Assembly: GCA_965226885.1 (NCBI GenBank) | Contig: CBDDEL010000013.1 | Coordinates: 160,001 to 224,000 of the forward strand | DNA: 64,000 nucleotides | Source: Opitutales bacterium | GTDB lineage: Bacteria > Verrucomicrobiota > Verrucomicrobiia > Opitutales > UBA2987 | Direction: 5' to 3' | In this document: one piece after another, positions 1-21,845 of the stretch | Position numbering within the stretch: position 1 is the first letter of the stretch | Layout: each line of letters begins with the position of its first letter | The notes under the pieces: model-generated | Database searches by the model: none | What the model was told of the DNA's origin: nothing | Seen by the model: the letters and a program-made list of their open reading frames with translations, nothing else | Program-made: the position numbers and the translations under genes

Positions 1-99
1 TGGATGACGTTGATAAAAAGAGCCGGAAAGAGCAAGTTTTTGCTCGATCCGGCCAAAAAAGGGTTCTATAATTGAGTTAGCGAAAATCAATATAGCTAG

Positions 100-1667: not shown

Positions 1668-1671
1668 CTAG

Positions 1672-5086: not shown

Positions 5087-5175
5087 CAGAAAGACATTGC
5101 CGGGACTGTGGGATTTTTTTTCTGCGCTGATGAAGTCAGGATTGGAAAAAAACAAAAAGTTAACGAAATAGGGCG

Positions 5176-5228
5176 TTGACAAACCTATTTTGCTGCGCAA
5201 ATTAAACTGGTCATACCGGTAAGACCAG
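5176..5228 (+). promoter_or_regulatory. Promoter (-35 TTGACA) with adjacent FadR/GntR-type palindromic operator
   Basis: TTGACA at 5176-5181; CTGGTCATACCGGTAAGACCAG (5207-5228) is a 20/22 palindrome built from GGT-N-ACC units typical of FadR-subfamily sites; directly upstream of the GntR gene. Confidence 0.7.
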
Positions 5229-5297: not shown

Positions 5298-6002
5298 ATG
5301 ATTTATACTCGACAGAAATCTTCTATTGCACGGGAAACTTTCGATTTCATTGCGGATCGAATTCGGGGGGGTCGCTATGCCCCGGGCGACAAGTTGCCGG
5401 GGGAGCGGTCGTTGGCCAGGCAACTGAGGGTGGGCCGCAATTCCGTGCGGGAGGCCATCCGGCGGCTGGAAACGGCTGGATTGCTGGAAACCCGGCAGGG
5501 GTTGGGATCTTTTGTCAAAGATCCTAGCGGGGAAATCCTGCAAACTGCCTTGATTTCCAATTTTCTGACCGATACGGCCATTCAGGAAAAACTGTTCGAT
5601 CTTCGCCTCATTATTGAAGTTGAGGCCACCGTCAGGGCAGTTCAATGTATCACGCCCGAGCAATTGCAGGATTTACGCCGTTTTCATGAATTGGTGGAAA
5701 AGTGCAGCGCCCGCGGCGATATCGATGGAATGATCGTGGCCGATTTTGAGTTTCACCGCCAGCTTTTGGTGGCCACGGGCAATGATATTTTGGTCAACCT
5801 GATGGATGGCATTATGGACCTGTTGCGGGAGATGCGGCGGGTGGGGGCTGAAATACCGGAATTGCTTTCGGAAAGAATATCGAGCCATCGAGCCATTATC
5901 AAGGCCATTGAAAATGGAGACGGTGAGGCAGCCCGCAGAGCCATGAAAGAACATCTCGAAGGTGTATTCAAAAGGGTAAAATCAATCCGGGAAGATAAAT
6001 GA
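5298..6002 (+). CDS. GntR family (FadR subfamily) transcriptional regulator
   Basis: wHTH PGDKLPGERSLARQLRVGRNSVREA; FCD domain with D-x-x-FH, GN, H-x-x-I, M-x-x-H. Confidence 0.95.
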   Translation: MIYTRQKSSIARETFDFIADRIRGGRYAPGDKLPGERSLARQLRVGRNSVREAIRRLETAGLLETRQGLGSFVKDPSGEILQTALISNFLTDTAIQEKLFDLRLIIEVEATVRAVQCITPEQLQDLRRFHELVEKCSARGDIDGMIVADFEFHRQLLVATGNDILVNLMDGIMDLLREMRRVGAEIPELLSERISSHRAIIKAIENGDGEAARRAMKEHLEGVFKRVKSIREDK

Positions 6003-6024
6003 CCGATGGCGAGGCGATTTGCTG

Positions 6025-6912
6025 ATGAGGGCGTTTGAATACTTCGAGCCCGCTACTTTGTTGGAAGCGGCGGCATTGCTTGAGCGCTATAACGGGCGGG
6101 CCAGCATCCTGGCCGGCGGAACCGATTTGCTGGTTGAAATCAAGGAGCGGATTCGGCTGCCGGACATTGTTATCAACATCAAAAAAGTTCCCGGCCTCGA
6201 CTATTTAAGCTACGATTCCGAAAAGGGTTTGAAGATCGGGTCTCTGGCTACCCTGCGGGAGGTGGAGGTATCCCCTTTGGTGAAGGAAAAATACGCCGGC
6301 CTCTACCGGGCGGCCAGGGAATTGGGGTCGATCCAGGTGCGTAACCGGGCCACCGTGGCGGGAAACATTTGCCGGGCCTCGCCATCGGCCGACACCCTGC
6401 CGCCTTTGATCGCCGATAACGCTGTCATACAAACATTCTGTCCCAATGGGTCGCGGTCGGTTCCTTTGGAAAACTTTTTTACCGGTCCCGGGAAAACGAT
6501 CCTTGGGGAAGGGGAAATATTAACCGAAATCACGGTTCCCAGCCCACCGCCCCATACGGGCAAGGTTTACCTAAAACTGGGCCGCCGGGCGGCCATGGAA
6601 CTGGCCACTGTGGGGGTGGCCGTCAACCTAACGGTGAAGGGGAAACTCTGCCGCCAGGTATGCATCGTATTGGGAGCGGTGGCCCCGACGCCCCTGCGCG
6701 CGACCGAGGCTGAGAACGTCTTATTGGGTAAGGAATTAACGGATGAAGCGCTGGAAAAGGCGGCCCAGTGTGCCCGCCACCAAAGCCGGCCCATCTCCGA
6801 TGTGCGTGGCAGCGCGGATTATAGGCGGGAAATGGTGGGGGTCTTAACCCGTCGAGCCCTCCGCATGGCTTGGACGGCGGCGGAAAATGATAATTTGGAT
6901 AAATCGTCATGA
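6025..6912 (+). CDS. Xanthine-oxidase-family molybdoenzyme, FAD-binding subunit (CoxM/XdhB-like)
   Basis: LAGGTDL, QVRNRATVAGNIC.ASP.AD, PISDVRGSADYR. Confidence 0.95.
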   Translation: MRAFEYFEPATLLEAAALLERYNGRASILAGGTDLLVEIKERIRLPDIVINIKKVPGLDYLSYDSEKGLKIGSLATLREVEVSPLVKEKYAGLYRAARELGSIQVRNRATVAGNICRASPSADTLPPLIADNAVIQTFCPNGSRSVPLENFFTGPGKTILGEGEILTEITVPSPPPHTGKVYLKLGRRAAMELATVGVAVNLTVKGKLCRQVCIVLGAVAPTPLRATEAENVLLGKELTDEALEKAAQCARHQSRPISDVRGSADYRREMVGVLTRRALRMAWTAAENDNLDKSS

Positions 6913-7394
6913 AGCACATTGTTTCAACAACGATTAACGGAGAGCGACGCGAATTGGCCATTGAGCCGTTCCGCAGTTTGCTCGACGTATTGCGCAACGA
7001 AGCGGAACTAACTGGTTCTAAAAAAGGCTGCGATGTGGGCGACTGTGGAGCCTGCACCGTAATTCTTGACGGGAAGACGGTAAATTCATGCCTCGTTCTG
7101 GGGGTGGAGATCGACGGGCTCGAGTTGACGACAATTGAAGGGTTGGCCGATGAGACTGCGCCGGGCGCCCCATTGCATCCTCTACAGGAGAGCCTTCTCC
7201 AGCATGGGGGGGCGCAGTGCGGGTTTTGCACTCCGGGGATTCTCATGGCGGCCAAGACATTGCTCGATGAAAATCCGCACCCGACCGAAGAAGAGGCGCG
7301 CTTTGCCATTGCGGGCAATCTCTGCCGCTGCACGGGCTACACCAAAATCATTGATGCCATCGTAAATACCCCAGTTGCGGAGGCTACTCCATGA
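6909..7394 (+). CDS. Xanthine-oxidase-family 2x[2Fe-2S] subunit (CoxS-like)
   Basis: GCDVGDCGACTV...SC, QCGFCTPG, GNLCRCTGY; 4-bp overlap with upstream gene. Confidence 0.96.
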   Translation: MKHIVSTTINGERRELAIEPFRSLLDVLRNEAELTGSKKGCDVGDCGACTVILDGKTVNSCLVLGVEIDGLELTTIEGLADETAPGAPLHPLQESLLQHGGAQCGFCTPGILMAAKTLLDENPHPTEEEARFAIAGNLCRCTGYTKIIDAIVNTPVAEATP

Positions 7395-9715
7395 CGCCCA
7401 CAACCGTATTGGAAGCCAAACCTCCCAGTTTGCCCGTTGAGCAGGCAACGGGGGACGGCCTGTCCGTGGTTCACACCAGCCCGCCTCGAATCGACGGGTT
7501 GGAGAAAGTTACCGGTTCGGCTCTCTATGCGGCGGATTACACTCTGCCGGGAATGCTTTATGGAAAAATTCTGCGTAGCGAACAGGCCCATGCCAGGATT
7601 CTAAAAATCGATAAAAGCAAAGCCCTCGCTCTGGAGGGTGTGAAGGCAGTCATCACGCACGAGGACACGCCGAAAGTCCTGCACCCCGGGGCTCCGGCTC
7701 CACGAGTCGGACAACTCGTTGCCGATCAATACGTTCTGGCGGGAAAAGCCCGCTATGCGGGCGACGGCATCGCGGCCGTGGCGGCCACGACCGAGGAAAT
7801 CGCGGAGGAAGCACTCCAATTGTTACAGGTCGATTACGAACCACTCCCGGCTGTTTTCGATACCAATGAGGCCATGAAACCGAATGCTCCCAGCATTCAC
7901 GGCACGGCGGGAAACTTGGTTGGGCCGCCCTTCATCATCGAGCGGGGCGATGTCGAAAAAGGATTTGCCGAGGCGGAAACGATTTTTGAAGCCTATTATG
8001 AAACCGGAAGGCCGGTTCCCTGCTACATGGAGCCCAATGCCTGTCTCTGCCGGTTCGATCGCGGTGGCAAACTGACCATCTGGAGTTCGACCCAGTGCGC
8101 TTTCATGGTCAGGGGCATCTTGAGCCAGGTGCTGGACATTCCAGCCCACGATGTGCGAGTCATTGTCGAGCACATGGGCGGAGGTTTCGGGGCCAAGCAG
8201 GACCTTTACCAGCACGAATTCGTTTGCGCCATCCTGGCTCGTGAGACCCGCCGACCGGTCAAAATGGAATATACCCGCAAGGAAAGTTTTCTGGGCGGCC
8301 GCACCCGGCATCCCACCCGGATTTACCTGAAACAAGGCTTGGCCAAAGACGGCACGCTGACCGCCAGGGAAGCCCGCTACGTTTCCGATACCGGCGGTTA
8401 TGCTTCCCATGGCCTGGGGATCACCGCGGTGGGCTGCCTCGATATCGCCTCCCTTTACCGGTGCGAGGAACACCTTAAAATTGAAGGAATCTCCGTTTAT
8501 ACAAACAACCCCATTTCCGGGGCTTATAGGGGTTTCGGGGCGGTGCAGTCCTATTTTGCCCTGGAAACCCAAATCGACGAAATGGCGGCGGCGCGGGGCG
8601 AAGACCCGATCGATTTCAGGCTCAGGAATGTTGTTGGAGATGGCGACCTGAGCCCTTCCGAGCACAAGATCCGGGGCGATGGTTTGGCCGCTTGTTTGAA
8701 AAGGGGAGTCGTGGAAACGAATTGGCATGAACGTAAGAAATCTGCACTGCCGGGGCATGGATACCTCAGGCGAGGTTGGGGTGTGGCGACCGAGATGCAC
8801 AGCAGCGGCGCCTATCCGGACATCGTTGAGCAGTCCAATGCGGTCGCTAAAATGAACGAGGACGGCACCCTGAACCTCTTGATCGGAATGGCCGATCTGG
8901 GCACCGGAACCCGCACCATGGCGGCTCAAATTGCGGCCGAGGTTTTGGGTGTGCCGCTCGAGGATATAAGCGTGATCGATGGCGATACCGATGTGGCACC
9001 CTTCGATATCGGGGCCTATGCCAGCCGCACCACCTTTGTGGGGGGCGGGGCGGTCCTCAAGGCGGCCAAACATCTTAAACGGCAGTTGTTGGAATTGGCC
9101 TCGAAGAGGATGAATGTCCCCTGGGAAGAAATAATCTTGGGCGGAGGCCGGGCATTTGTGAAGCGCTCGCCCGATCGAGGAATGGCAATCAGAGACCTGG
9201 TGGCGGGAGAGGGTGGACGCCCGCCCCGGACCCTCATCGGCCAGGGAAACAACGAGCCCACCGTGGCCTACTCTTTCGGGGCCCATTTCGCGGAGGTGGA
9301 AGTGGACATTGAAACGGGGCAAATCCGGGTTTTGCAGGTGGTGGCGGTCCATGAAATCGGCCGGGCGATCAACCCTATTGCCGTGGCCGGTCAAATCGAA
9401 GGCGGCATACAGCAGGGATTCGGGCATGCCCTGACCGAAGATTTTATTATCGATAAAAAAACGGGACGGGCCTTGAATCCGAGTTTCGTCGATTACAAGA
9501 TGCCCCTGGCTCTGGACATGCCCAAAATAAAAACCATCATTCTGGAGGAATATCCCGACCCCGGCGGACCGTTCGGAGCCAAAGGCATCGGGGAAGACCC
9601 CATCATCCCTATCGGCCCGGCCATTGGCAACGCCGTTTACGACGCCACCGGGGTCCGCATGAGGGAACTTCCCATCACACCGGAAAAATTTCTTAAGGCG
9701 TTGGCAAAAATCTAA
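7391..9715 (+). CDS. Xanthine-oxidase-family molybdopterin-binding subunit, substrate unknown
   Basis: MGGGFGAK, AYRGFG, GAYASRT, GQIEGG, AKGIGE; 4-bp overlap with upstream gene. Confidence 0.95.
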   Translation: MTPTTVLEAKPPSLPVEQATGDGLSVVHTSPPRIDGLEKVTGSALYAADYTLPGMLYGKILRSEQAHARILKIDKSKALALEGVKAVITHEDTPKVLHPGAPAPRVGQLVADQYVLAGKARYAGDGIAAVAATTEEIAEEALQLLQVDYEPLPAVFDTNEAMKPNAPSIHGTAGNLVGPPFIIERGDVEKGFAEAETIFEAYYETGRPVPCYMEPNACLCRFDRGGKLTIWSSTQCAFMVRGILSQVLDIPAHDVRVIVEHMGGGFGAKQDLYQHEFVCAILARETRRPVKMEYTRKESFLGGRTRHPTRIYLKQGLAKDGTLTAREARYVSDTGGYASHGLGITAVGCLDIASLYRCEEHLKIEGISVYTNNPISGAYRGFGAVQSYFALETQIDEMAAARGEDPIDFRLRNVVGDGDLSPSEHKIRGDGLAACLKRGVVETNWHERKKSALPGHGYLRRGWGVATEMHSSGAYPDIVEQSNAVAKMNEDGTLNLLIGMADLGTGTRTMAAQIAAEVLGVPLEDISVIDGDTDVAPFDIGAYASRTTFVGGGAVLKAAKHLKRQLLELASKRMNVPWEEIILGGGRAFVKRSPDRGMAIRDLVAGEGGRPPRTLIGQGNNEPTVAYSFGAHFAEVEVDIETGQIRVLQVVAVHEIGRAINPIAVAGQIEGGIQQGFGHALTEDFIIDKKTGRALNPSFVDYKMPLALDMPKIKTIILEEYPDPGGPFGAKGIGEDPIIPIGPAIGNAVYDATGVRMRELPITPEKFLKALAKI

Positions 9716-9745
9716 TAATCCATACAAAAAGACTGAAATAAATTT

Positions 9746-10627
9746 ATGAAACCACCCATTATTGATTGTTTAACCCATATCAGCCGGGGGGCTGATGATG
9801 TTGTCGGATGGGGGCCACGGTTTTTGGCCGAGGACCTGATCGCGCAAATGGACGCTCCCCGGAAAATTCTAGGCGAATCCGCCCGAATCGACCAATCAAT
9901 CGTTTTTCCCGCCCTTGGGGAGACGGTTCCCACCTCCGAATTATCTTTCGGGGAGCAACACGAATATGTGCTCGCAAGTGTGCGCAAATACCCCGACCGG
10001 CTGATAGGAGGGGCCATCATCCACGCCCGGCTGTGGAACGACGATGTGGCTGGCCAACTGGAGTCGATGGTGCGGGAGGATAATTTCCGGATGCTTTATA
10101 TTCATCCATCCTTTCATAAATACTGGCTGCCAATTTCCACTCCCAGCGAGAGCGAGGGGTCGAAGCAGTTGCTCTATCCGGTATTCGAGTTTGCCCGCAA
10201 GTGGTCGTTGCCGGTTTTATTGCATACCGGCGAGCCTCCCTATGGATTGCCCGCGACTGTTGAATTCGTGGCCGGTGAATTTCCCGATGTGAGCATGATC
10301 ATCGCCCACATGGGGACCCAGGGGGTGGTTTACACCCTGGAGTCCCTGCTGGTGGCCCAGAATCACCCCAATGTTTTGCTGGAAACCAGTTTTACGCAAT
10401 GCCACATGCTCATTGAGAGCGTTCATTCGCTGGGCTCCGAGCGGGTGCTGTTCGGCAGCAATTGCCCACCCATGGAGCCGACCCAGCAGCTTATGACGGT
10501 GGAGGAGTCCCTCACCCTGGCCCCGCCCATTGGCATGAGTCTCTCTTTTGACAACACCCGCAAAGTGCTCGGCGGGAATCTTGCCGGGCTGATCCAAAAA
10601 ACCGATACGGCAGTAGCCCAACATTAG
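9746..10627 (+). CDS. Amidohydrolase_2-family protein, degenerate metal site
   Basis: TIM-barrel motifs HTGEPP, IIAHMG, RVLFGS; HxH is LTH and the strand-8 Asp is Asn. Confidence 0.85.
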   Translation: MKPPIIDCLTHISRGADDVVGWGPRFLAEDLIAQMDAPRKILGESARIDQSIVFPALGETVPTSELSFGEQHEYVLASVRKYPDRLIGGAIIHARLWNDDVAGQLESMVREDNFRMLYIHPSFHKYWLPISTPSESEGSKQLLYPVFEFARKWSLPVLLHTGEPPYGLPATVEFVAGEFPDVSMIIAHMGTQGVVYTLESLLVAQNHPNVLLETSFTQCHMLIESVHSLGSERVLFGSNCPPMEPTQQLMTVEESLTLAPPIGMSLSFDNTRKVLGGNLAGLIQKTDTAVAQH

Positions 10628-10642
10628 GAAATATTTTTTATC

Positions 10643-11521
10643 ATGTCTCGTATAATTATAGATTCGCACAACCACATTATTAACCACCGGGAGCCCGTCT
10701 GGGGCTGGGGGCCGCGTTTTACAGGGGACGACCTCATCGCCACCATGGACCGGGACTACGATGTCATGGGGGAAATACGGCACGTTGCAAAAGCCGTTAC
10801 TATGGGATCGCTGGGGATCACCGCACTGGGCGACTACACGATGGCGGAAGCGCATCAATATGTTCGCCAGTGCGTGCAGGAACATTCCGATCGCCTTTAC
10901 CTGAACGCCGTTTACAATCCCCGAATCTGGAGCGTCGATGAGTTGAACCAGGTGGACCAGTGGGTCGAGGATTCCAACCTGGTCATGCTCAAACTGCACC
11001 CGACGATGCACAATTTCCTGTTGCCCATGGGTAATCCTTATCCTGGCCGGGAGACCACCAAACTGGTTTTTCCCCTTTTTGAGAAAGCCCGCCAGTTGGG
11101 AGTGCCGGTCATGATCCACATGGGCGAGCCGCCCCACTCCAACCCCTCATCCATCGATCCGATTGCCCAGGAATTTCCCGATGTGCCGATCATCATTGCC
11201 CATTCGGGAGCGAATAACGAAATCAGCTACGCACTGGCGGCGACCATCGTGGCGCGGCACAACGACAATGTCTTTTTAGGCACCAGTTGGGTGCAGCCGT
11301 TGGATCTGAGCGAGATGTATTACGCCGTTGGGCCGAGCAAAATCATTTTTGAGAGCGATTGTGCGCCGCAATCGATGGGCCACCAGATGCGCCAGGTGAT
11401 CAACCTGCACCTGCCTCCGCCCCTGGGTGTGGGCGCCTCTGCCGATGAGGTTTATGAAATGATCGGGGGCAACATCGCCCGTTTGTGCAAAATCCCGGTG
11501 GGAGAGCCCGTTGGGGCCTGA
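10643..11521 (+). CDS. Amidohydrolase_2-family protein, intact metal site
   Basis: IDSHNH, KLHP, HMGEPP, IIAHSG, IFESD; clear paralog of the upstream gene. Confidence 0.9.
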   Translation: MSRIIIDSHNHIINHREPVWGWGPRFTGDDLIATMDRDYDVMGEIRHVAKAVTMGSLGITALGDYTMAEAHQYVRQCVQEHSDRLYLNAVYNPRIWSVDELNQVDQWVEDSNLVMLKLHPTMHNFLLPMGNPYPGRETTKLVFPLFEKARQLGVPVMIHMGEPPHSNPSSIDPIAQEFPDVPIIIAHSGANNEISYALAATIVARHNDNVFLGTSWVQPLDLSEMYYAVGPSKIIFESDCAPQSMGHQMRQVINLHLPPPLGVGASADEVYEMIGGNIARLCKIPVGEPVGA

Positions 11522-11531
11522 GTTTATAATT

Positions 11532-12536
11532 GTGAAAAAAGACTTTTGGCAGTCAGGCTTCCTGTTCTTGGCAAGCTTCCTCTTGATGGCCTTGGCCGGA
11601 GGGTGCTCCGGCGGGGTTGAAAAGAAAGGCGATGCCGATGTTTTCATGGTCGGTTTGCTTAGCCCGGGACCCGTCAACGGGCAAGGCTGGACACAGATTG
11701 CCTATGAGGCTCTACTAAAGATTGAGAAAGAATTGGGGGCGCAAATCAGCTATGTGGAGGTGGAGCAATCGCCGGCCTTGTTCGAGCGGGCCTTTCGCGA
11801 TTATGCCAGCCAGGGTTATCAGATGGTCCTCGGTCACGGTTTTGAATTTCAGGATTCGGCCCTCACGGTGGCGAAAGATTTTCCCGACACCTGGTTCTTC
11901 ATTTCCAGCAGCAAAATTCGGGAGGGCAATGTCATTGGGGTGGACACCGATTCGAGCCAGCCCTTTTACCTGATGGGAATCATAGCGGCCAAAATGGGCA
12001 AAGCCGCCGGGCTGATCGGGGGGGTGGAAATACCGCCCATCACCAACGCATTTATCGGATTCACCAATGGGGTTCGCAGCATCGACCCCTCTTTTCCCAT
12101 CAGCACCACTTATTTGGGCAGTTGGACCGATGCCGCGGCAGCCAAGGAAGCGGCCTTCAGCATGATAGGGGAGGGGGCCGATTTTATCATACCGGACGCC
12201 GATGCTGCTGGTTCCGGCGTTTACCAGGCCCTTAAGGAGACCGGCCCCGGCTATTGGTCTTTCGGAATCTACAACGATTTCACCTCACAGGCCCCGGACA
12301 ATATGATCGGCAACTATTTCAACGATTACGGGCAAGGTTTGGTCAATATTGCCCGGCAGGTGCAGGAGGGTAGTTTTGCGATTGAATCGAATATCGTATT
12401 CGGGGTTAAGGACGAAGACGTGATCTGGGTTGAGTTTGAAGAGGGCAGGGTGCCTGCCGATGTGTTGGAACTGGTGGAAGCCGCCAGGCAGGAGATCATT
12501 GCCGGTAAAATCGATACCTTGGCGCCCAACCATTGA
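11532..12536 (+). CDS. BMP/PnrA-family ABC substrate-binding lipoprotein (nucleoside/purine-type)
   Basis: Signal peptide with lipobox LAGGC; GHGFEF, YLGSWTDAAAAKEAA, GADFI. Confidence 0.9.
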   Translation: MKKDFWQSGFLFLASFLLMALAGGCSGGVEKKGDADVFMVGLLSPGPVNGQGWTQIAYEALLKIEKELGAQISYVEVEQSPALFERAFRDYASQGYQMVLGHGFEFQDSALTVAKDFPDTWFFISSSKIREGNVIGVDTDSSQPFYLMGIIAAKMGKAAGLIGGVEIPPITNAFIGFTNGVRSIDPSFPISTTYLGSWTDAAAAKEAAFSMIGEGADFIIPDADAAGSGVYQALKETGPGYWSFGIYNDFTSQAPDNMIGNYFNDYGQGLVNIARQVQEGSFAIESNIVFGVKDEDVIWVEFEEGRVPADVLELVEAARQEIIAGKIDTLAPNH

Positions 12537-13663
12537 AAAGGGAAACTGTGGACGCCAGGGATGCGGAAAGTGCACAGGATATGCCGTCAAATCAGCCGGA
12601 ACCAAAAAATTTTCCCCCTCCGATTAAGATCCTGCGTTCTGCCGGGCGAATCGTTGCTCTGCCCACGGCTGCCGTGGGCATTGCGTTGGCGGCAGGAGCG
12701 ATCCTGCTCTTGTCGGCGGGATTTTCTCCACTCAAGGCCTACGGGGTGATGGGGTATGGGGCTTTCGGTACGGTCAACAACCTGGCGGAGACGCTTCTCA
12801 AATCTACGCCCTTGATCTTGATCGGTTCGGGGCTGGCGGTGGCCTTTCGCAGCGGCATGTGGAATATAGGGGCCGAAGGCCAACTCTATGCCGGAGCGGT
12901 GGCGGCCACTCTGGCGGGGACTGTTTTTTCGGATCTGCCCGCAGTCCTCCTGGTTCCTTTGGTTTTGATTTCCGGTATGGCCGGCGGCGCTGTGTGGGGC
13001 GGACTGGCCGGATTTTTCAAGGTGCGGTTCGGCGCCAGCGAAATAGTCACCACCATCATGCTCAATTTCCTGGCCATCATTGCCACCAGCTATTTGGTGA
13101 CCGGGCCGATGATTGAGGAAGTGGGTAAATTTCCGCAAACGGCACAAATCGCGGAAGCGGCCCGGCTTCCCCGCATCTTGTTGCCGACCCGCCTCCATAT
13201 TGGTTTCATCCTGGCCTTGGCCGTCTCCCTGGCGACCTATGTGCTGCTTTTCAAGTCCAGCCGCGGCTATGCCCTGCGCACCGTTGGGATAAGCCCGGAT
13301 GCGGCGCGCTATGCCGGCATCAATGTGGGCGCGGGCCTCCTCACCGCCATGGCTATCAGCGGCGGGGCGGCGGGATTGGCCGGGGCCGTAGAAATAACCG
13401 GTTTAACCTATCGGCTTTATCAGGAGATTTCTCCCGGTTACGGTTTTGACGGGATCGCCGTCGCCCTTTTGGCCAACAACAATCCCCTGGGGGTCATCTT
13501 CACTGGTATTCTCTTTGGGGCCTTGCGCTCCGGTTCCGAAGTCATGCAGATGAATGCCCAGGTGCCCGCCGTCCTGGTTTCCGTCATCCAGGGGGCGGTT
13601 TTGCTTTCGGCGGCAGCTTTCGGAGTATTTCGAATCACCGTGGCGGATCCACATAAGGAGTAG
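12533..13663 (+). CDS. ABC permease, nucleoside (NupB/YufP-like) type
   Basis: NIGAEGQ, EIVTTIMLN, GYGFDGIAVALL; multi-TM. Confidence 0.93.
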   Translation: MKRETVDARDAESAQDMPSNQPEPKNFPPPIKILRSAGRIVALPTAAVGIALAAGAILLLSAGFSPLKAYGVMGYGAFGTVNNLAETLLKSTPLILIGSGLAVAFRSGMWNIGAEGQLYAGAVAATLAGTVFSDLPAVLLVPLVLISGMAGGAVWGGLAGFFKVRFGASEIVTTIMLNFLAIIATSYLVTGPMIEEVGKFPQTAQIAEAARLPRILLPTRLHIGFILALAVSLATYVLLFKSSRGYALRTVGISPDAARYAGINVGAGLLTAMAISGGAAGLAGAVEITGLTYRLYQEISPGYGFDGIAVALLANNNPLGVIFTGILFGALRSGSEVMQMNAQVPAVLVSVIQGAVLLSAAAFGVFRITVADPHKE

Positions 13664-13669
13664 TTGAAA

Positions 13670-14608
13670 ATGGAACCGCTGGCCATAATTGCATTTCTCG
13701 CTGCGGTGCTGGGGGCTGCCTGGAGGCTGGCCACTCCTTTCATCTATACATCGTTGGGAGAAGTATTTTCAGAGCGGGCCGGAGTATTGAATATCGGGCT
13801 CGAGGGCGTCATGCTGATCGGAGCTTTCAACGCATTTGCCATCGCCTTTTTTACGGGCAGCCCTTTTCTCGGTCTGGCGGCCGCTTTGGCCGCCGGATTG
13901 CTCTGCGGGCTGCTCTTCGCATTTTTGACCGTAACCGTGCGGGCCAACCAAATCGTGGTGGGGGCAGCCTTCAACCTGGCCGGTCTCGGTTTGACCAGTT
14001 TTCTTTACCGGTCCGTGTTTTCCGGGCGCATGGAGACGGCCCGGGAATACGTTTCCTTCGTTCCCATCGAAATACCATTCTTAAGCCGTTTGCCATTTTT
14101 CGGTGAAATTTTCTTTCGGCAAAATTTGATCGTTTACGCCACCCCGCTGGTGGTTTTGGCGGGCGCCTTCATCCTTTACCGGACCGCCTTCGGCCTCTCC
14201 CTCAGGGCCGTCGGAGAACACCCGCGAACGGTCGATGCGGCGGGATTGAAAGTGAGCTTGATCCGCTATTGTGGTGTTTTAACCGGTTGCGGATTGGCGG
14301 CCATGGGTGGCGCTTATTTGACAATTGCTCACACTAACCAGTTTAACGAGGGCATCACCTCGGGCCGTGGATTTATTGCCCTGGCGGTGGTCGTTATCGG
14401 ACGTTGGTCTCCCTGGGGCGCATTCTTCGTTTCCCTTTTGTTTGGATTTTTTTACGCCCTTCAATTGAGGCTGCAAGCGGTCTCCTCCATAACGATACCC
14501 TACCAGTTTCTGCAAGCCTTGCCCTACCTGCTGACTTTGCTTGTATTCGTCGTTCTGCGCAAACGAACCGCCCCGCCCGCCGCGCTGGGCGTTCCCTACA
14601 AATCATGA
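13670..14608 (+). CDS. ABC permease, nucleoside (NupC/YufQ-like) type
   Basis: SERAGVLNIGLEG, LRAVGEHP, GRGFIALA, LPYLLT. Confidence 0.93.
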   Translation: MEPLAIIAFLAAVLGAAWRLATPFIYTSLGEVFSERAGVLNIGLEGVMLIGAFNAFAIAFFTGSPFLGLAAALAAGLLCGLLFAFLTVTVRANQIVVGAAFNLAGLGLTSFLYRSVFSGRMETAREYVSFVPIEIPFLSRLPFFGEIFFRQNLIVYATPLVVLAGAFILYRTAFGLSLRAVGEHPRTVDAAGLKVSLIRYCGVLTGCGLAAMGGAYLTIAHTNQFNEGITSGRGFIALAVVVIGRWSPWGAFFVSLLFGFFYALQLRLQAVSSITIPYQFLQALPYLLTLLVFVVLRKRTAPPAALGVPYKS

Positions 14609-14631
14609 CTTGAAATTGTGGCACAGTCGTT

Positions 14632-16164
14632 ATGAGTGAAGTTTTTCTCAAATTGGATAAAATCGTCAAAAGTTTTCCCGGTGTAAAGGCTAACCGCGGG
14701 ATCAGCCTGGAAGTCGGGAAAGGGAAAATTCATGCTTTGCTGGGTGAAAACGGCGCCGGCAAGACGGTTCTTATGAGCATCGTCTATGGGCTCCACCAAC
14801 CCGATTCCGGGAGCATTGTTTATCGCGGCGAACCTGTTGCCATCCATTCTCCCAAAGACGCCATCAAAAGAGGCATCGGCATGGTCCATCAACACTTTAT
14901 GCTGGTTCCAACCCTGACGGTGGCGGAAAATATCGTTCTGGGACAATACCCGCCCTGGAAGGTTTTGCGGGAAATGGGTAAAGTGGAATCGAGAATCGAG
15001 GAGTTGAGCCAGAAATTCGGGCTGAAAATCGATCCTCGCGCTCCCGTGCATCGTCTTTCGGTGGGGGAACAGCAAAGGGTGGAAATTTTGAAGGCTCTTT
15101 ATCAGGGCGTGGACCTGCTCATTCTCGATGAACCGACGGCCGTGCTTACCCCTCAGGAAACGGATGGGCTTTTGAACTTTTTGAAAGAAATGACTGGGCG
15201 CGGATTGACCGTTATTTTCATCACCCACAAGCTGGACGAGGTTATGCGGGCGAGCGACCGGGTAACGGTATTGCGCGACGGCCGGGAGGTTGCCATGGTG
15301 CAAACGGCGGAAACCAATCCGCGCGCGCTGGCCCGGCTTATGGTGGGGCGGGAGGTTTTTCTGGAACCTCCGTCGAGAGAGGGAACGGTGGGTAAAAATA
15401 TCCTTTCGGTGAAAAACCTGACGGTCAACGACGAGCGGGGTTTGCCGGCTGTAAGGGATATAACTTTTGAGGTGAAAAGCGGGGAAATCGTTGGCATTGC
15501 CGGGGTGTCCGGGAATGGACAGAGTGAACTGGCCTTGGCTCTAGCCGGATTGAGGCCCGTTTCAAGCGGCCAAATTTATTTTCTCGACACCCCGGCGACT
15601 AACCTGCTTCCGCGAAAATTGAGCCGCCTGGGGCTCGCCCATGTGCCCGAAGACCGGCACAAAATGGGAATCGTGCTGCCTTTCACGGTGGCGGAAAATT
15701 TTATTTTGCACGATTTCGGCGATCCGCCATTTGCCCGGAACGGATTTTTGCGTTCGGGGTTAATTCGCCGCCACGCCAGGAAGCTGGCCCAAAAATATGC
15801 CGTTCGCCATAGCGCGGTGGATCAGGAGATCGGCCAGCTTTCGGGCGGAAACCAGCAGAAGGTGGTCGTTGCTAGGGAATTGCAGCGCAGCCCGCGTCTC
15901 CTGTTGGTCAACGAGCCGACCCGAGGGATCGATATCGGGGCCACCGAATTTGTCCGCCGGCAAATAGCGGCGGCCCGCGATGCAGGATCGGCCGTGCTGC
16001 TTATATCTTCGGACTTGGAGGAATTGTTTGCCCTCAGCGACCGTTTACTCATTTTTTATGAAGGAAAAATTGTCGGCCAAACCCCCGCAAATAACGAACT
16101 TATCGAGGAAATCGGTTTGATGATGGCGGGCCATAAAATCGAAAATTATGCGCCTGAAAACTGA
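14632..16164 (+). CDS. ABC ATPase with two NBDs (CUT2/NupA-like)
   Basis: GENGAGKT, GMVHQHF, LILDEPT, LSGGNQQK. Confidence 0.95.
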   Translation: MSEVFLKLDKIVKSFPGVKANRGISLEVGKGKIHALLGENGAGKTVLMSIVYGLHQPDSGSIVYRGEPVAIHSPKDAIKRGIGMVHQHFMLVPTLTVAENIVLGQYPPWKVLREMGKVESRIEELSQKFGLKIDPRAPVHRLSVGEQQRVEILKALYQGVDLLILDEPTAVLTPQETDGLLNFLKEMTGRGLTVIFITHKLDEVMRASDRVTVLRDGREVAMVQTAETNPRALARLMVGREVFLEPPSREGTVGKNILSVKNLTVNDERGLPAVRDITFEVKSGEIVGIAGVSGNGQSELALALAGLRPVSSGQIYFLDTPATNLLPRKLSRLGLAHVPEDRHKMGIVLPFTVAENFILHDFGDPPFARNGFLRSGLIRRHARKLAQKYAVRHSAVDQEIGQLSGGNQQKVVVARELQRSPRLLLVNEPTRGIDIGATEFVRRQIAAARDAGSAVLLISSDLEELFALSDRLLIFYEGKIVGQTPANNELIEEIGLMMAGHKIENYAPEN

Positions 16165-16230
16165 AATCGGCTTTATTTTGTTCTCTTGCTCCTGGCCATT
16201 AAACAAGCTACTAATTGGATTAGCTTAGAC

Positions 16231-16824
16231 GTGAAACGATTAATTATAGGCATTACCGGCGCCAGCGGCGTTATTTATGGAATTCGTTTATTGGAAATTT
16301 TGCGGGAAACGCAAGAGGTGCATACCCACCTTGCCATTAGCAATGCCGGTAAGCGCACCATTCTCCTGGAAACGGATTTTTCAATTGCCGGGGTGGAAGC
16401 GCTGGCCGACGAAGTAATTGCCATTGGCGACATCGCCGCCAACATCTGCTCCGGCTCTTTTAAGACCTACGGCATGATTGTGGCGCCCTGCTCGATTCAT
16501 TCCCTTTCCGGAATCGCTCATTCCGTGTGCGATAATCTGATCCTCAGGGCGGCCGATGTGGTCTTGAAAGACAGGCGGAAATTACTTCTTTTAGTGCGCG
16601 AAACACCCTTGCACCGGGGTCATATTGAACTAATGGAGCGTGCCGCCAAATTGGGGGCCATCATCATGCCGCCGGTTCCCGCCTTTTATCATCGTCCGAA
16701 AAAGTTGGACGATATCATCAACCAAACGGCCAACCGCGCACTAGACCTGATGGATATCGAATTGGATGAGGATTTGTATGAACGCTGGCAAGGCCCTGGG
16801 CAGTCACAAGAACCTAAAAGTTAA
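16231..16824 (+). CDS. ubiX: Flavin prenyltransferase
   Basis: IGITGASG, SGSF, APCS, RAADV.LK.RR, RETP, PAFY. Confidence 0.95.
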   Translation: MKRLIIGITGASGVIYGIRLLEILRETQEVHTHLAISNAGKRTILLETDFSIAGVEALADEVIAIGDIAANICSGSFKTYGMIVAPCSIHSLSGIAHSVCDNLILRAADVVLKDRRKLLLLVRETPLHRGHIELMERAAKLGAIIMPPVPAFYHRPKKLDDIINQTANRALDLMDIELDEDLYERWQGPGQSQEPKS

Positions 16825-16838
16825 AGGAAGATTGATCG

Positions 16839-18191
16839 ATGGCATCACTGAGAACTTTTCTCGAAACTCTTTCCGAAGATGAGATACTGCGCTTCGAAGA
16901 GCCGATGGAACTGGATTATACTCCGACCGCGCTGGCTCTGGAATTGGGGAAAGAGCAGAAATTTCCCATGCTTTGGTTTGAGCAGCCCAATGGCTTCGAT
17001 ATGCCGGTAGTGGCCAATATTTTTGCTAACAGAGACCGCATTGCCCGTATCGCCGGGGCGCCTGATGCGGCCAGTTTCAACGAAACCTGGCTGCGGGCGG
17101 AAAATAATCCCGTTTCGCCTCGTCTTGTCGATTCCGGTCCCGCCCAGGAGTTGGTTTTCATCGGCGACGAGGTGGATGTGCGGACGCTTCCCATCAGCCG
17201 CCATTTTCAGGCCGACGCCGGGCGCTACATCGGCTCCGGCATATTGATCTGCAAAGACCCTGACACAGGCGTGCGCAACCTCAGCTACCAGCGTTTGCAG
17301 TTGAAGGGCAAAGACCGCTTTGGGGCCAGCTTGCACTCCAGGGCCCATATATGGGATCACTTGATTCGCTCGCAGAAACGGGGCAAAAATCTTGAGGTGG
17401 CGGTGGTTATCGGGGCGCATCCGGCTATTTATCTGGCGGCCGCCGCCAAGGTGGCCATGGAGGTGGATGAGCTGGACATTGCGGGCGGGCTTTTGGGGAA
17501 ACCGGTCGATCTCGTAAAATGCCGCACTATCGATATAGAGGTTCCAGCCGAGGCCGAGATCGTCATCGAGGGCGAATTGCTGGCCGATGCGAGTGAGGAC
17601 GAGGGCCCCTACGGTGAATACACCGGCTACTCAACTTACCGATCAACCCGCAATGTATTCGTCGTCAAGGCGGTCACCCGGCGAGAGAAACCGATTTATC
17701 TGGACATCATTCCGGGTAATTCGAGCGAACATCTATTGCTTGGCCGCTGTGCCAAGGAAGCGCATGTATTCAATCGGCTGAAGGAGGTCGTGGCGGGGGT
17801 CAAGGCCATTAATTACCCCAAGTCGGGAACTCATTTTCACGCCTACATCTCCCTCCAAAAAGGGGCCGAGGGGCAGGCCCGGCACGCCATCATGCTTTTG
17901 TTCGGTTTGGATTCCTATCTGAAACTAGTCATCGCCGTCGATGAGGACATCGATATTTACAACGTGGAGGATATTCTCTGGGCTTTGGCTACCCGATTTC
18001 AGGCCGACACCGATTTGTTTGTCGTGCCCAAAGTATTTTGCAATCGACTCGACCCTTCCGCCGTCGATGGCATGTCCGCCAAGTTGGGCATTGACGCGAC
18101 GCTGCCGCCAGATTTCGAGGCGGAGCGAATCGCTCTTCCCGCGGAGGCATTGGAGAGGGCTCGTTCGGCTTTGGCGAAATTGCTGGTTTGA
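16839..18191 (+). CDS. UbiD-family prFMN-dependent (de)carboxylase
   Basis: RNLSYQRLQ, VPAEAEIVIEG, EGPYGEYTGY, VDEDID, WALATR, LDPS, KLGIDAT. Confidence 0.95.
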   Translation: MASLRTFLETLSEDEILRFEEPMELDYTPTALALELGKEQKFPMLWFEQPNGFDMPVVANIFANRDRIARIAGAPDAASFNETWLRAENNPVSPRLVDSGPAQELVFIGDEVDVRTLPISRHFQADAGRYIGSGILICKDPDTGVRNLSYQRLQLKGKDRFGASLHSRAHIWDHLIRSQKRGKNLEVAVVIGAHPAIYLAAAAKVAMEVDELDIAGGLLGKPVDLVKCRTIDIEVPAEAEIVIEGELLADASEDEGPYGEYTGYSTYRSTRNVFVVKAVTRREKPIYLDIIPGNSSEHLLLGRCAKEAHVFNRLKEVVAGVKAINYPKSGTHFHAYISLQKGAEGQARHAIMLLFGLDSYLKLVIAVDEDIDIYNVEDILWALATRFQADTDLFVVPKVFCNRLDPSAVDGMSAKLGIDATLPPDFEAERIALPAEALERARSALAKLLV

Positions 18192-18199
18192 GGACCTAA

Positions 18200-20714: not shown

Positions 20715-20845
20715 AATTGCCTCCTTTTATCCTGTCATTGGCATTGAACAACTAATAAACAGAATGATCGGACATTTGCTCTGGTCCCGTGTTAGGGGGA
20801 AGAGCAAAATTCCAATCCTTCCAAGTCCAGCGAATTTTACCCTGA

Positions 20846-21823: not shown

Positions 21824-21845
21824 CAGTTTAGTCCTATGTTATTTT

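What the first reader, a model, noticed from the sequence alone, without database searches (positions are those of the whole stretch)
5298..18191. Self-contained N-heterocycle catabolic operon: Mo-hydroxylase, paired amidohydrolases, BMP nucleoside importer and UbiX/UbiD (candidate pteridine/lumazine ring-contraction pathway)
Seen: 12 co-oriented genes, mostly overlapping or under about 70 bp apart, behind one GntR gene and promoter. Known: xanthine-oxidase-family enzymes hydroxylate N-heterocycles, BMP/NupABC importers carry nucleosides and purines, and UbiD with UbiX decarboxylates (hetero)aromatic acids. Classical bacterial pteridine catabolism oxidises lumazines to tetrahydroxypteridine, rearranges it to xanthine-8-carboxylate (EC 5.5.1.3) and decarboxylates that to xanthine. 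Inference: this gene set maps one-to-one onto oxidise, ring-open/reclose, decarboxylate. I recall a similar lumazine-degradation cluster in a betaproteobacterium but cannot verify it here, so novelty may be limited to the lineage and the transporter. Alternative substrates are pyridine-, pyrazine- or furan-carboxylates or modified purines.
Basis: partly seen in the sequence, partly recalled or inferred. Interest (0 to 1): 0.88.

Follow-up and report, generated by a model that had tools for sequence, protein, structure and literature searches.

The report
Pteridine-to-purine breakdown operon, anaerobe-type variant
This 12-gene operon of an Opitutales bacterium is most likely a divergent version of the lumazine/pterin-to-xanthine pathway described in Cupriavidus in 2025, so the chemistry is probably known, but here it has a different importer, a separately evolved ring-contracting enzyme pair and no metal chaperone.

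Summary
In detail: 12 co-oriented genes (5298-18191), gaps 30 bp or less. It matches a pathway published in 2025 (Cupriavidus sp. LA-1 cluster I, PMC12391406).

- **Hydroxylase:** the three Mo-hydroxylase subunits are 58-60% identical to those of a Cupriavidus campinensis cluster-I-like locus. That enzyme nests inside the window's clade.
- **Decarboxylase system:** UbiX is 50% and UbiD 42-44% identical to the proteobacterial ones.
- **Amidohydrolases:** the two Amidohydro_2 genes repeat the catalytic-plus-degenerate design of the isomerase, but are only 28-32% identical and arose by a separate duplication.
- **Differences:** no LA1_0143-type GTPase in window or genome, no deaminase in the operon, and a BMP-type ABC importer instead of NCS2 permeases.

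The module is co-conserved in 27 loci from Opitutales, Chloroflexota and Desulfobacterota MAGs. In Opitutales it was found in 1 of 89 genera sampled. The flanking IS elements are later insertions.

The scan has already met the proteobacterial version on other DNA.

Verdict: a new variant of a known kind, of moderate interest. Substrate (lumazine or pterin) and product (xanthine or guanine) are untested.

The parts
4806..5097 (+). Two 105-nt direct repeats (4806-4910 and 4993-5097, 89% alike). Each carries one copy of CTGGTCAGACCGGT and may be an auxiliary GntR site.
5176..5228 (+). Candidate control region: a -35-like TTGACA (5176-5181), then the 22-nt palindrome CTGGTCATACCGGTAAGACCAG (5207-5228), a candidate GntR/FCD operator.
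   Evidence: Sequence. Conserved in L005 and L006. The motif CTGGTCNNACCGGT occurs 4 times without mismatch, all within 4839-5228; the search, which allowed up to 1 mismatch, gave 5 matches against 0.22 expected in the whole window. No full sigma-70 promoter was called. Function is inferred.
5298..6002 (+). GntR-family regulator with an FCD ligand domain.
   Evidence: Pfam PF00392 and PF07729. Homologues at 48-92% in 15 of 27 related loci.
6019..6912 (+). FAD subunit of the LuDH-type molybdenum hydroxylase.
   Evidence: Pfam. 59% identical to the C. campinensis cluster-I-like locus L036.
6909..7394 (+). [2Fe-2S] subunit of the LuDH-type hydroxylase.
   Evidence: Pfam. 60% identical to L036.
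7391..9715 (+). Molybdopterin (large) subunit of the LuDH-type hydroxylase.
   Evidence: Pfam. 58% identity and 879 bits to L036. The Cupriavidus enzyme nests inside the window-type clade (SH-aLRT 99). The genome's own four paralogues are only 26-38% identical.
9746..10627 (+). AhA: Amidohydro_2 paralogue with a degenerate metal site (Leu9, His11, Asn239). Inferred non-catalytic partner, analogous to DHLI alpha.
   Evidence: In the column analysis, position 9 is L/I/V in 27/27 and position 239 is N in 27/27. 37% identical to AhB. Predicted to bind AhB.
10643..11521 (+). AhB: Amidohydro_2 paralogue with an intact HxH...D site. Inferred catalytic subunit of a ring-contracting isomerase, analogous to DHLI beta.
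   Evidence: H9, H11 and D239 are present in 28/28. 28-30% identical to proteobacterial DHLI subunits.
11511..12536 (+). BMP-family substrate-binding protein of the ABC importer.
   Evidence: Pfam PF02608. Best solved relatives are 7x0r 'Lbp' at 104 bits, 3s99 at 99 and the atrazine-binding protein 6pi5 at 98.6; TmpC scores 53.
12533..14608 (+). Two ABC permease genes (12533-13663 and 13664-14608).
   Evidence: Pfam PF02653. Co-conserved with the BMP gene.
14632..16164 (+). Double ABC ATPase.
   Evidence: Pfam PF00005, two stretches.
16186..16824 (+). UbiX flavin prenyltransferase, which makes prFMN.
   Evidence: NCBIfam NF004685 258.7 bits against a cut-off of 188. 50% identical to L036.
16839..18191 (+). 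UbiD-family prFMN decarboxylase. Inferred purine-8-carboxylate decarboxylase.
   Evidence: Pfam. 42-44% identical to XCDC-type enzymes and 36-38% to hmf-cluster HmfF-type. It is the only UbiD in the genome.
18192..19800 (-). IS1380 element inserted between the operon and the carbamate kinase gene. Not part of the pathway.
   Evidence: NCBIfam NF033539 404 bits. The relative L005 has no IS at this position.
97..4187 (.). Upstream IS block: an IS1380 copy at 97-1671, an ISNCY-like transposase at 1680-3161 and a truncated IS1380 at 3362-4187. It lies between ftsQAZ and the operon.

Best explanation
The operon takes up an oxidised pteridine, most likely lumazine or hydroxylumazines, and converts it to a purine without needing O2.

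1. The BMP-type ABC importer brings the heterocycle in.
2. The three-subunit LuDH-type molybdenum hydroxylase adds water-derived oxygen at C7 and C6, giving 6,7-dihydroxylumazine.
3. A heteromer of AhB (intact Zn-type HxH...D site) and AhA (degenerate site) attacks the C7 amide and recloses N8 onto C6. This contracts the pyrazinedione ring to an imidazole and gives xanthine-8-carboxylate.
4. UbiD, loaded with prFMN made by UbiX, removes the carboxylate to give xanthine.
5. Xanthine then enters the genome's separate xanthine dehydrogenase routes or salvage.
6. The GntR/FCD protein probably represses the operon from the palindrome at 5207-5228 until a pathway compound binds it.

Shown here: gene content, orthology of the hydroxylase, co-conservation of the module, and the metal-site pattern of the pair. 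Inferred: every substrate and product, the heteromer, and the regulation.
For: - **The pathway and its enzymes are characterised** in Cupriavidus sp. LA-1 (PMC12391406, Results and Discussion read).
- **Hydroxylase:** the FAD, FeS and Mo subunits are 59, 60 and 58% identical to those of C. campinensis locus L036. By that call's match positions, L036 holds the two amidohydrolase genes, UbiD, the three hydroxylase subunits and UbiX in that order, fitting LA-1's locus-tag order reversed. In the large-subunit tree the Cupriavidus enzyme sits inside the window-type clade (16 rows, SH-aLRT 99). The genome's four other XOR-family paralogues (26-38%) and HmfA (28%) lie outside.
- **Amidohydrolase pair:** of 72,556 plasmid records, the best tblastn hits of AhB are 107 records, 99 covering at least 80% of the query, with two adjacent places in every listed row. 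The two whose annotation I read are cluster-I-like loci.
- **Metal site:** AhB keeps H9, H11 and D239 in 28/28 sequences. AhA has L/I/V9 and N239 in 27/27. This matches the published catalytic-beta / non-catalytic-alpha design.
- **Heteromer:** predicted AhA-AhB complex ipSAE 0.64, best of 3 controls 0.00. The mark was reached by 116 of 157 solved complexes and 2 of 215 mismatched pairs. Contacts agree in at least 96% between runs and partner pLDDT is at least 89.
- **Fusion:** a natural fusion of a catalytic and a degenerate domain exists in this sequence neighbourhood (P0126).
- **UbiD:** 42-44% identical to XCDC-type against 36-38% to hmf-cluster HmfF-type. It is the genome's only UbiD.
- **Deaminase link:** homologues 39% identical to the Caballeronia cluster's PDA-like protein lie in related loci L010 (just after UbiD) and L015 (upstream of GntR). 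The genome has one on another contig.
- **Purine and folate genes in related loci:** IMPDH lies inside 4 related clusters, 5-formyl-THF cyclo-ligase is in L015 and thymidylate synthase in L010.
- **Co-conservation:** 27 loci across three phyla.
- **Downstream routes:** the genome holds an XdhAB-type enzyme with XdhC and a selenium-dependent XDH.
Against: - **No biochemistry.**
- **The pair is not orthologous to DHLI.** AhA and AhB are only 28-32% identical to DHLI alpha/beta, and each hits both subunits about equally.
- **Separate duplication.** In the tree the proteobacterial alpha and beta are sisters, apart from AhA and AhB (a quick tree with long branches).
- **DHLI is not the nearest subfamily.** In an exhaustive profile search, DHLI-type sequences score 144-163 bits against the AhB profile. 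About eight full-length representative clusters of unknown function score higher.
- **The chaperone is missing.** The paper says the LA1_0143-type GTPase always accompanies DHLI-beta. It was not found in the window or in 27 related loci. The 96%-complete genome gives only a 23-bit CobW match.
- **The UbiD is ambiguous.** Its best solved relative is the furandicarboxylate decarboxylase HmfF at 327 bits. My UbiD tree has too few outgroups to resolve it.
- **No deaminase and no NCS2 permease in the operon.**
- **The complex prediction has limits.** A pass for two paralogues of one family may only copy a homodimer interface, and I did not test homodimers.
Confidence: 0.7

Rival explanations
1. The enzyme logic is the same, but the substrate and product differ. 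The module takes pterins directly (6,7-dihydroxypterin to guanine-8-carboxylate to guanine) or another fused pyrazinedione. The divergent AhA/AhB and UbiD would reflect that changed specificity.
For: - The hydroxylase is well conserved (58%), while the isomerase-like pair (28-32%) and UbiD (42-44%) are much more divergent.
- LA-1 LuDH accepts both pterins and lumazines, whereas LA-1 DHLI rejects 6,7-dihydroxypterin. A changed isomerase is therefore where a changed substrate would show.
- The operon holds no deaminase.
- IMPDH genes lie inside 4 related clusters.
- MtmB-like and corrinoid genes lie inside clusters L014 and L025, and a corrinoid-protein gene alone lies beside L009's. This hints that some variants handle methylated compounds.
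Against: - PDA-like deaminases lie in related loci L010 and L015 and elsewhere in this genome. That fits funnelling of pterins into lumazines, as in LA-1.
- No direct evidence exists for any substrate.
Confidence: 0.2
2. The operon is a furan-type or other heteroaromatic-carboxylate pathway (hmf-like, picolinate or nicotinate-like). UbiD would act first on a dicarboxylate and the Mo enzyme would hydroxylate the product.
For: - The nearest solved structure of the UbiD is HmfF, 6h6v, at 327 bits.
- Mo hydroxylase plus UbiD/UbiX is also the make-up of hmf clusters.
- From established knowledge, the Amidohydro_2 family contains decarboxylases of aromatic acids.
Against: - A genuine hmf-cluster HmfF scores 445 bits to 6h6v and is only 36-38% identical to the window's UbiD.
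- HmfA-type large subunits are about 1000 aa and 28% identical.
- The operon has no CoA ligase and no enoyl-CoA hydratase.
- The Mo enzyme is in the LuDH group.
- The importer is BMP-type rather than a carboxylate transporter.
Confidence: 0.04
3. The operon is an ordinary purine catabolic operon. The Mo enzyme would be a xanthine dehydrogenase, and the amidohydrolases and UbiD would act on purine-ring breakdown products.
For: - The best NCBIfam models are XdhA, XdhB and XdhC of the E. coli type.
- The importer is BMP-type.
- Carbamate kinase and an OTCase-like gene lie nearby.
Against: - All three Xdh equivalog scores are below their cut-offs: 670 against 780, 221 against 310, and 173 against 217.
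- The genome has separate XdhAB+XdhC and Se-dependent XDH loci.
- LA-1 LuDH does not oxidise xanthine.
- From my own knowledge, no UbiD step is known in purine catabolism.
Confidence: 0.05

Closest known systems
Lumazine/pterin degradation cluster I of Cupriavidus sp. LA-1 (LuDH LA1_0145-0147, DHLI alpha/beta LA1_0152/0151, XCDC LA1_0150, UbiX LA1_0144; Doi, Maeda and Takaya 2025, PMC12391406). Its look-alikes on proteobacterial replicons are L001, L002 and L036.
   Same: - A three-subunit Mo hydroxylase of the same orthologous group (58-60%).
- Two adjacent Amidohydro_2 genes, degenerate first and catalytic second.
- A UbiD and a UbiX, plus a dedicated importer and regulator.
- The same three-step logic.
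   Different: - The amidohydrolase pair is a different clade (28-32%, separate duplication).
- No LA1_0143-type GTPase and no pterin deaminase in the operon.
- A BMP ABC importer instead of nucleobase:cation symporters.
- A GntR/FCD regulator instead of the LysR-type genes annotated in L001 and L002.
- The hosts are Opitutales, Chloroflexota and Desulfobacterota MAGs, which the paper's main text does not name. Its Supplementary Figs 18 and 20 are PDFs that I could not read.
hmf cluster for furandicarboxylate/furoate (HmfFG + HmfABCDE), seen here in Paraburkholderia aromaticivorans pBN1 (L037) and Dinoroseobacter shibae pDSHI01 (L038).
   Same: A UbiD/UbiX pair next to a three-subunit Mo hydroxylase. 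The UbiD lies in the same broad branch, since HmfF is its nearest solved structure.
   Different: - The UbiD is 36-38% identical.
- The large subunit is 28% identical and about 250 aa shorter.
- No CoA ligase or hydratase here.
- The amidohydrolase pair and the BMP importer are absent from hmf clusters.
Tetrahydroxypteridine cycloisomerase activity (EC 5.5.1.3) and xanthine-8-carboxylate decarboxylation. The paper cites these as activities reported long before the genes were known. The link to Alcaligenes in the 1960s is from my recollection.
   Same: The chemistry proposed for AhA/AhB and UbiD.
   Different: These were enzyme activities without sequences, so no comparison is possible.
E. coli-type xanthine dehydrogenase XdhABC (NCBIfam NF043082, NF043083, NF043084).
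   Same: The best-scoring curated models for all three subunits. Same subunit architecture.
   Different: All three scores are below the equivalog cut-offs. The characterised relative LuDH does not oxidise xanthine.

Membership tests
Lumazine/pterin degradation cluster I (Cupriavidus LA-1 type) | Three-subunit LuDH-type molybdenum hydroxylase | tested here: met
   59, 60 and 58% identity to the three subunits in C. campinensis locus L036. That enzyme nests inside the window-type clade with SH-aLRT 99. L036 stands in for LA-1 itself, whose sequence I did not hold.
Lumazine/pterin degradation cluster I (Cupriavidus LA-1 type) | Two adjacent Amidohydro_2 genes, one with an intact HxH...D metal site and one degenerate | tested here: met
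   AhB has H9, H11 and D239 in 28/28. AhA has L/I/V9 and N239 in 27/27. The two are adjacent in 27/27 loci.
Lumazine/pterin degradation cluster I (Cupriavidus LA-1 type) | Orthology of the pair to DHLI alpha and beta | tested here: not met
   28-32% identity, with each window protein hitting both subunits alike. Proteobacterial alpha and beta are sisters, apart from AhA and AhB. About eight other representative clusters score closer to the AhB profile than DHLI does.
Lumazine/pterin degradation cluster I (Cupriavidus LA-1 type) | XCDC-type UbiD decarboxylase with UbiX | tested here: inconclusive
   UbiX is present (50%). The UbiD is 42-44% identical to XCDC-type and 36-38% to HmfF-type. The tree does not resolve the branching.
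Lumazine/pterin degradation cluster I (Cupriavidus LA-1 type) | LA1_0143-type GTP-binding chaperone accompanying DHLI-beta ('always', per the paper) | tested here: not met
   tblastn with the Caballeronia GTPase found nothing in the window or in 27 loci at E <= 1e-5. PF02492 in the own genome gives only 23.2 bits over 47 positions.
Lumazine/pterin degradation cluster I (Cupriavidus LA-1 type) | Pterin deaminase in the cluster | tested here: not met
   None in the operon. A 39%-identical homologue lies on contig C14 and is 8-oxoguanine-deaminase-like, 505 bits against a cut-off of 532. Related loci L010 and L015 have one close by.
Lumazine/pterin degradation cluster I (Cupriavidus LA-1 type) | Conversion of lumazine to xanthine via 6,7-dihydroxylumazine and xanthine-8-carboxylate | not testable with these tools
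   Needs enzyme assays.
hmf furan pathway (HmfFG + HmfABCDE) | HmfF-type UbiD | tested here: not met
   The window UbiD scores 327 bits to HmfF 6h6v, against 445 bits for a UbiD from a genuine hmf cluster. It is 36% identical to that UbiD.
hmf furan pathway (HmfFG + HmfABCDE) | HmfA-type large subunit, furoyl-CoA ligase HmfD and hydratase HmfE | tested here: not met
   28% identity to HmfA-type. The 12 genes contain no AMP-binding or enoyl-CoA hydratase domain.
Quinone-biosynthesis UbiD (ubiquinone/menaquinone) | Score above the NCBIfam equivalog cut-off | tested here: not met
   NF008175 179.5 against 788. TIGR03701 224.3 against 495.9.
Xanthine dehydrogenase XdhABC | Scores above the equivalog cut-offs | tested here: not met
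   670.2 against 780, 220.7 against 310, and 172.7 against 217.

The most novel reading that the evidence does not exclude
This is an oxygen-independent pteridine-to-purine module of anaerobe-rich lineages. Its ring-contracting enzyme evolved its catalytic-plus-dead-subunit design independently of the proteobacterial isomerase and works without a COG0523-type metallochaperone. It may take pterins directly and release guanine rather than xanthine, turning folate- and pigment-derived pteridines into a purine source.
Probability: 0.25. Interest if true: 0.65.

Novelty: new variant of a known kind. Interest (0 to 1): 0.45.

Why it matters
The pteridine-to-xanthine route got its genes only in 2025, and only in aerobic soil Proteobacteria, with look-alikes in Actinomycetota.

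If this module does the same job, it extends the pathway to Verrucomicrobiota, Chloroflexota and sulfate-reducer lineages. Every step uses water, not O2. Folate, pterin and lumazine residues could then be recycled to purines in anoxic sediments and guts.

It would also give a second, independently derived example of a catalytic amidohydrolase that needs a dead paralogue. That example lacks the metallochaperone, which makes it a useful contrast for working out how the ring contraction works.

If instead the substrate differs, the divergent pair and the UbiD mark where the specificity changed.

Tried and rejected
- **Riboswitch:** I followed a lead from earlier scan notes on the rhizobial version. 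There was no Rfam match at E <= 0.1 in window 1-26000, and none at gathering score in 7 of the 27 related loci.
- **Composite transposon:** the IS1380 copies flank the operon, but ftsQAZ upstream and carbamate kinase/OTCase-like downstream are syntenic with L005, which lacks the IS elements. The IS elements are therefore secondary insertions.
- **Promoter and terminator scan:** counts are no higher than in shuffles.
- **UbiD tree:** with only XCDC-type and HmfF-type outgroups it is effectively a four-way star and decides nothing.
- **The HmfF structure sequence** could not be put in a tree, because PDB chains are not stored sequences. I compared bit scores instead.
- **PDB by sequence for AhB:** one weak hit only, 3cjp at E 5.6e-4.
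- **The name 'Lbp' of 7x0r** could not be traced; 0 papers were found.
- **Supplementary distribution figures** of PMC12391406 are PDFs and were not readable.
- **Literature:** searches for the pathway terms found only that paper as directly relevant. No paper in the library describes the BMP / no-chaperone variant. Subscription journals are not covered.
- **Careful tree:** the amidohydrolase tree did not finish in time, so the quick tree was used.

Full report
**Observation**

From those coordinates, four junctions overlap by 4-11 bp and the other seven gaps are 0-30 bp.

Pfam and NCBIfam name them in order:
- a GntR/FCD regulator;
- the FAD, [2Fe-2S] and molybdopterin subunits of a xanthine-oxidase-family hydroxylase;
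- two Amidohydro_2 proteins (here AhA, 9746-10627, and AhB, 10643-11521);
- a BMP-family binding protein, two permeases and a double ATPase;
- UbiX and UbiD.

The gene set is therefore as described. The 'one promoter' is not verified. A consensus scan gives no more promoter- or terminator-like sites than shuffles do.

**Upstream of gntR**

There is a TTGACA at 5176-5181 followed by a 22-nt palindrome at 5207-5228. Both are conserved in two of the three Opitutales relatives aligned. The core CTGGTCNNACCGGT occurs four times without mismatch, all within 4839-5228. The search, which allowed one mismatch, gave 5 matches in the whole window against 0.22 expected. I read this as a candidate GntR operator with two auxiliary sites in 105-nt direct repeats. 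This is an inference.

**Where it sits**

The window is contig C13:160001-224000 of a 5.48-Mb, 96%-complete genome. The nearest named relatives of the operon are four 'Opitutales bacterium' MAGs, at 92-98% for AhB.

IS1380 copies and an ISNCY-like element lie on both sides. The chromosomal position is nevertheless conserved. ftsQ-ftsA-ftsZ lie just upstream of the window, and carbamate kinase plus an OTCase-like gene lie downstream, as in relative L005, which has no IS there. The IS elements are later insertions, not a composite transposon.

Within the order, AhB was found in 4 of 151 genomes searched, G000 included. That is 1 of 89 genera. The operon's proteins are nearest to Chloroflexota sequences. 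This pattern suggests that the ancestor of this genus acquired the operon by transfer. That is an inference.

**What it matches**

A literature search found Doi, Maeda and Takaya 2025 (PMC12391406). I read its outline, Results and Discussion, and searched its text.

In Cupriavidus sp. LA-1, cluster I encodes:
- a three-subunit NAD+-dependent lumazine dehydrogenase (LuDH), which uses water-derived oxygen and does not oxidise xanthine;
- a 6,7-dihydroxylumazine isomerase (DHLI), which is an alpha2beta2 complex of two Amidohydro_2 paralogues, where only beta keeps the Zn-binding histidines;
- a UbiD-type xanthine-8-carboxylate decarboxylase (XCDC) with UbiX;
- a pterin deaminase, a GTP-binding helper (LA1_0143) said always to accompany DHLI-beta, two nucleobase-type transporters and two regulators.

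**Test of orthology: locating the proteobacterial version**

I did not hold LA-1's sequence, so I located the proteobacterial version by search. tblastn of AhB against 72,556 plasmid and chromid records gave 107 records, all below 60% identity. Of these, 99 covered at least 80% of the query. Every listed row showed two adjacent places.

The two annotated regions I opened were Paracoccus L001 and Caballeronia L002. Both show amidohydrolase, amidohydrolase, UbiD, UbiX, GTP-binding protein and NCS2 permease. Caballeronia adds a two-subunit Mo enzyme and a further amidohydrolase. This matches the paper's description of the cluster in those lineages.

A Cupriavidus campinensis chromid locus (L036) has no annotation. 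By the match positions it holds the two amidohydrolase genes, UbiD, the three hydroxylase subunits and UbiX in that order, which fits LA-1's locus-tag order reversed.

**Test of orthology: identities**

Against L036 the window's proteins are:

| Protein | Identity to L036 |
|---|---|
| FAD subunit | 59% |
| FeS subunit | 60% |
| Mo subunit | 58% (879 bits) |
| UbiX | 50% |
| UbiD | 43% |
| AhA, AhB | 28-32%, to both amidohydrolases alike |

In a large-subunit tree the Cupriavidus enzyme falls inside the window-type clade (16 rows, SH-aLRT 99). The genome's four other XOR-family large subunits (26-38%) and HmfA-type subunits (28%) lie outside. The hydroxylase is thus a member of the LuDH group. 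That is the firmest result here.

**The amidohydrolase pair**

AhA and AhB are 37% identical to each other.
- *Metal site.* Across the family, AhB keeps H9, H11 and D239 in 28 of 28 sequences. AhA has Leu/Ile/Val at 9 and Asn at 239 in 27 of 27, and keeps H11. One partner is therefore intact and one degenerate, as in DHLI, and in the same gene order. The substitutions differ, however: the proteobacterial alpha has S and Y at the two His positions and keeps the Asp.
- *Tree.* A quick tree with long branches (the careful search did not finish) puts proteobacterial alpha and beta as sisters, apart from the AhA and AhB clades. This points to separate duplications.
- *Exhaustive search.* A profile search of 1.84 billion representatives found 26 with E <= 1e-30. 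Scored against the AhB profile, DHLI-type sequences reach 144-163 bits. About eight full-length representative clusters of unknown function score higher.
- *Fusion.* One of those, P0126, is a natural fusion of an intact and a degenerate domain.
- *Complex prediction.* It supports AhA-AhB binding with ipSAE 0.64, and the best of 3 controls scored 0.00. The mark was reached by 116 of 157 solved complexes and 2 of 215 mismatched pairs. The runs agree in at least 96% of contacts and partner pLDDT is at least 89. The pass may reflect a homodimer-like interface of the family, and I did not test homodimers.

I conclude that the pair works like DHLI but is not a DHLI orthologue.

**The decarboxylase**

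- *Solved structures.* The best solved relative of the UbiD is HmfF 6h6v at 327 bits. One search confirms that the entry is HmfF. The same is true of the Caballeronia XCDC-type protein, at 226 bits. A UbiD from a genuine hmfFG-hmfABCDE cluster (L037) scores 445 bits.
- *Identities.* The window's UbiD is 42-44% identical to XCDC-type and 36-38% to hmf-cluster enzymes.
- *Limits.* My tree has too few outgroups to decide the branching.
- *Other roles.* It is the only UbiD in the genome and is far below the quinone-pathway cut-offs.

HmfF-likeness therefore does not refute the reading, but the UbiD alone does not prove it.

**What is missing or replaced**

- *Helper GTPase.* No LA1_0143-type GTPase was found in the window or in any of 27 related loci. 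The genome gives only a 23-bit CobW match.
- *Deaminase and permease.* The operon has no pterin deaminase and no NCS2 permease.
- *Importer.* It is BMP-type instead. Its nearest solved relatives are 7x0r 'Lbp', 3s99 and the atrazine-binding protein 6pi5, at 99-104 bits. The nucleoside binder TmpC scores 53. That 3s99 and 6pi5 bind free purine bases, and that TmpC binds nucleosides, is my recollection, not a tool result.
- *Riboswitch.* None was found.

**Co-conservation and context**

I examined 27 loci with an AhB homologue of 46% identity or more. They come from Opitutales, many Chloroflexota, one Desulfarculaceae MAG and one Desulfohalobiaceae MAG. One search gives these counts:

| Feature | Loci |
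|---|---|
| AhA-AhB adjacent | 27 of 27 |
| UbiD present | 21 of 27 |
| GntR homologue | 15 |
| BMP at 50% or more | 15 |
| UbiX | 6 |

Five of the six loci without UbiD end near the pair, and only L008 has full flanks. An LuDH-type large subunit at 50% or more appears in 16 loci. Two further loci hold fragments seen by Pfam.

Other genes in these loci are:
- PDA-like deaminases in L010 and L015, 39% identical to the Caballeronia one;
- IMPDH inside the cluster in L021, L022, L023 and L030;
- 5-formyl-THF cyclo-ligase (L015) and thymidylate synthase (L010);
- MtmB-like methyltransferases with corrinoid proteins (L014, L025), and a corrinoid-protein gene alone in L009;
- a proteobacterial-DHLI-like third paralogue next to AhA in L020/L029.

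The own genome has a PDA-like gene on C14 that is 8-oxoguanine-deaminase-like, 505 bits against a cut-off of 532. It also has an XdhAB-type enzyme with XdhC, and a selenium-dependent XDH with YgeY and a YgfK-like gene. So a deaminase candidate and xanthine-consuming enzymes exist elsewhere in the genome.

**Mechanism proposed**

The steps are import, two water-dependent hydroxylations, ring contraction by AhB supported by AhA, prFMN-dependent decarboxylation to a purine, and control by GntR. None of them needs O2 (for LuDH; the others by their chemistry). The host lineages include sulfate-reducer families, which are anaerobes by established knowledge. I put 0.7 on a pteridine-to-purine function.

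The main rival, at 0.2, keeps the logic but changes the substrate, for example pterins going straight to guanine. The reasons are:
- the isomerase and decarboxylase are much more diverged than the hydroxylase;
- LA-1's DHLI refuses 6,7-dihydroxypterin;
- the operon has no deaminase.

Furan-type and ordinary purine readings are unlikely, for the reasons given under the rival explanations.

**Novelty**

The pathway is published, and this scan has already met its proteobacterial form on other genomes. New here are:
- the lineages;
- the ABC importer;
- the absence of the chaperone that the paper calls characteristic;
- the separately derived heteromeric amidohydrolase.

The paper's main text does not mention Chloroflexota, Verrucomicrobiota, anaerobes or ABC transporters. 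Its supplementary distribution figures could not be read.

Verdict: a new variant of a known kind, interest 0.45.

Noticed in passing
window 19767-24959 (- strand); L015:5131-6123; L019:9307-10299: pyrR-pyrB-pyrC is followed by an OTCase-like gene that scores below every NCBIfam cut-off (best 260.9 against 306) and by carbamate kinase. OTCase-like genes 45-47% identical to it sit in the cluster loci of two Chloroflexota lineages, L015 (just after AhB) and L019. A link to the pathway is possible but untested.
   Followed up: partly
L014:2652-13306; L025:5695-7801; L009:3457-4134: MtmB-family methyltransferase genes and corrinoid-protein genes lie inside variant clusters L014 (four MtmB paralogues, two corrinoid proteins) and L025 (one of each). 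L009 has a corrinoid-protein gene only. Where a UbiD is present (L014, L025) it is the roughly 50% subclade. This hints at methylated substrates.
   Followed up: no
L020:1340-2245 and L029:3-944: One Chloroflexia MAG has a third amidohydrolase next to AhA-AhB. It groups with the proteobacterial DHLI subunits and, in L020, keeps the HxH motif.
   Followed up: partly
L021:9025-10482; L022:12413-13873; L023:12247-13716; L030:3579-5036: An IMP dehydrogenase gene with CBS domains follows UbiD in four Chloroflexota loci, and lies between UbiD and the BMP gene in three of them (L022, L023, L030). This ties the module to purine nucleotide metabolism.
   Followed up: no
protein P0126 (545 aa, from the representative search): A natural fusion of two Amidohydro_2 domains of this neighbourhood. 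The first has HxH and Asp. The second has the second His and the Asp replaced.
   Followed up: partly
window 97-1671, 3362-4187, 18192-19800, 32662-33404, 33413-34989; also 1680-3161 and 26226-28495: Five IS1380 pieces (90-93% alike), an ISNCY-like element and an IS21 pair lie in 64 kb. The same elements recur at other loci of the genome (C14, C17, C11). The genome is IS-rich.
   Followed up: partly
G000:C12:311000-329000 (L052): A selenium-dependent xanthine dehydrogenase (928 bits against a cut-off of 830) lies with YgeY and a YgfK-like gene. This is the gene set known from anaerobic purine degraders. The genome has five XOR-family large subunits in all.
   Followed up: partly
window 37566-39989 (- strand): An 807-aa ORF without any Pfam match lies next to a CitMHS/TrkA-C transporter gene.
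   Followed up: no
window 42406-43014 (- strand): A HigB-like toxin gene and an HTH antitoxin gene form a pair.
   Followed up: no
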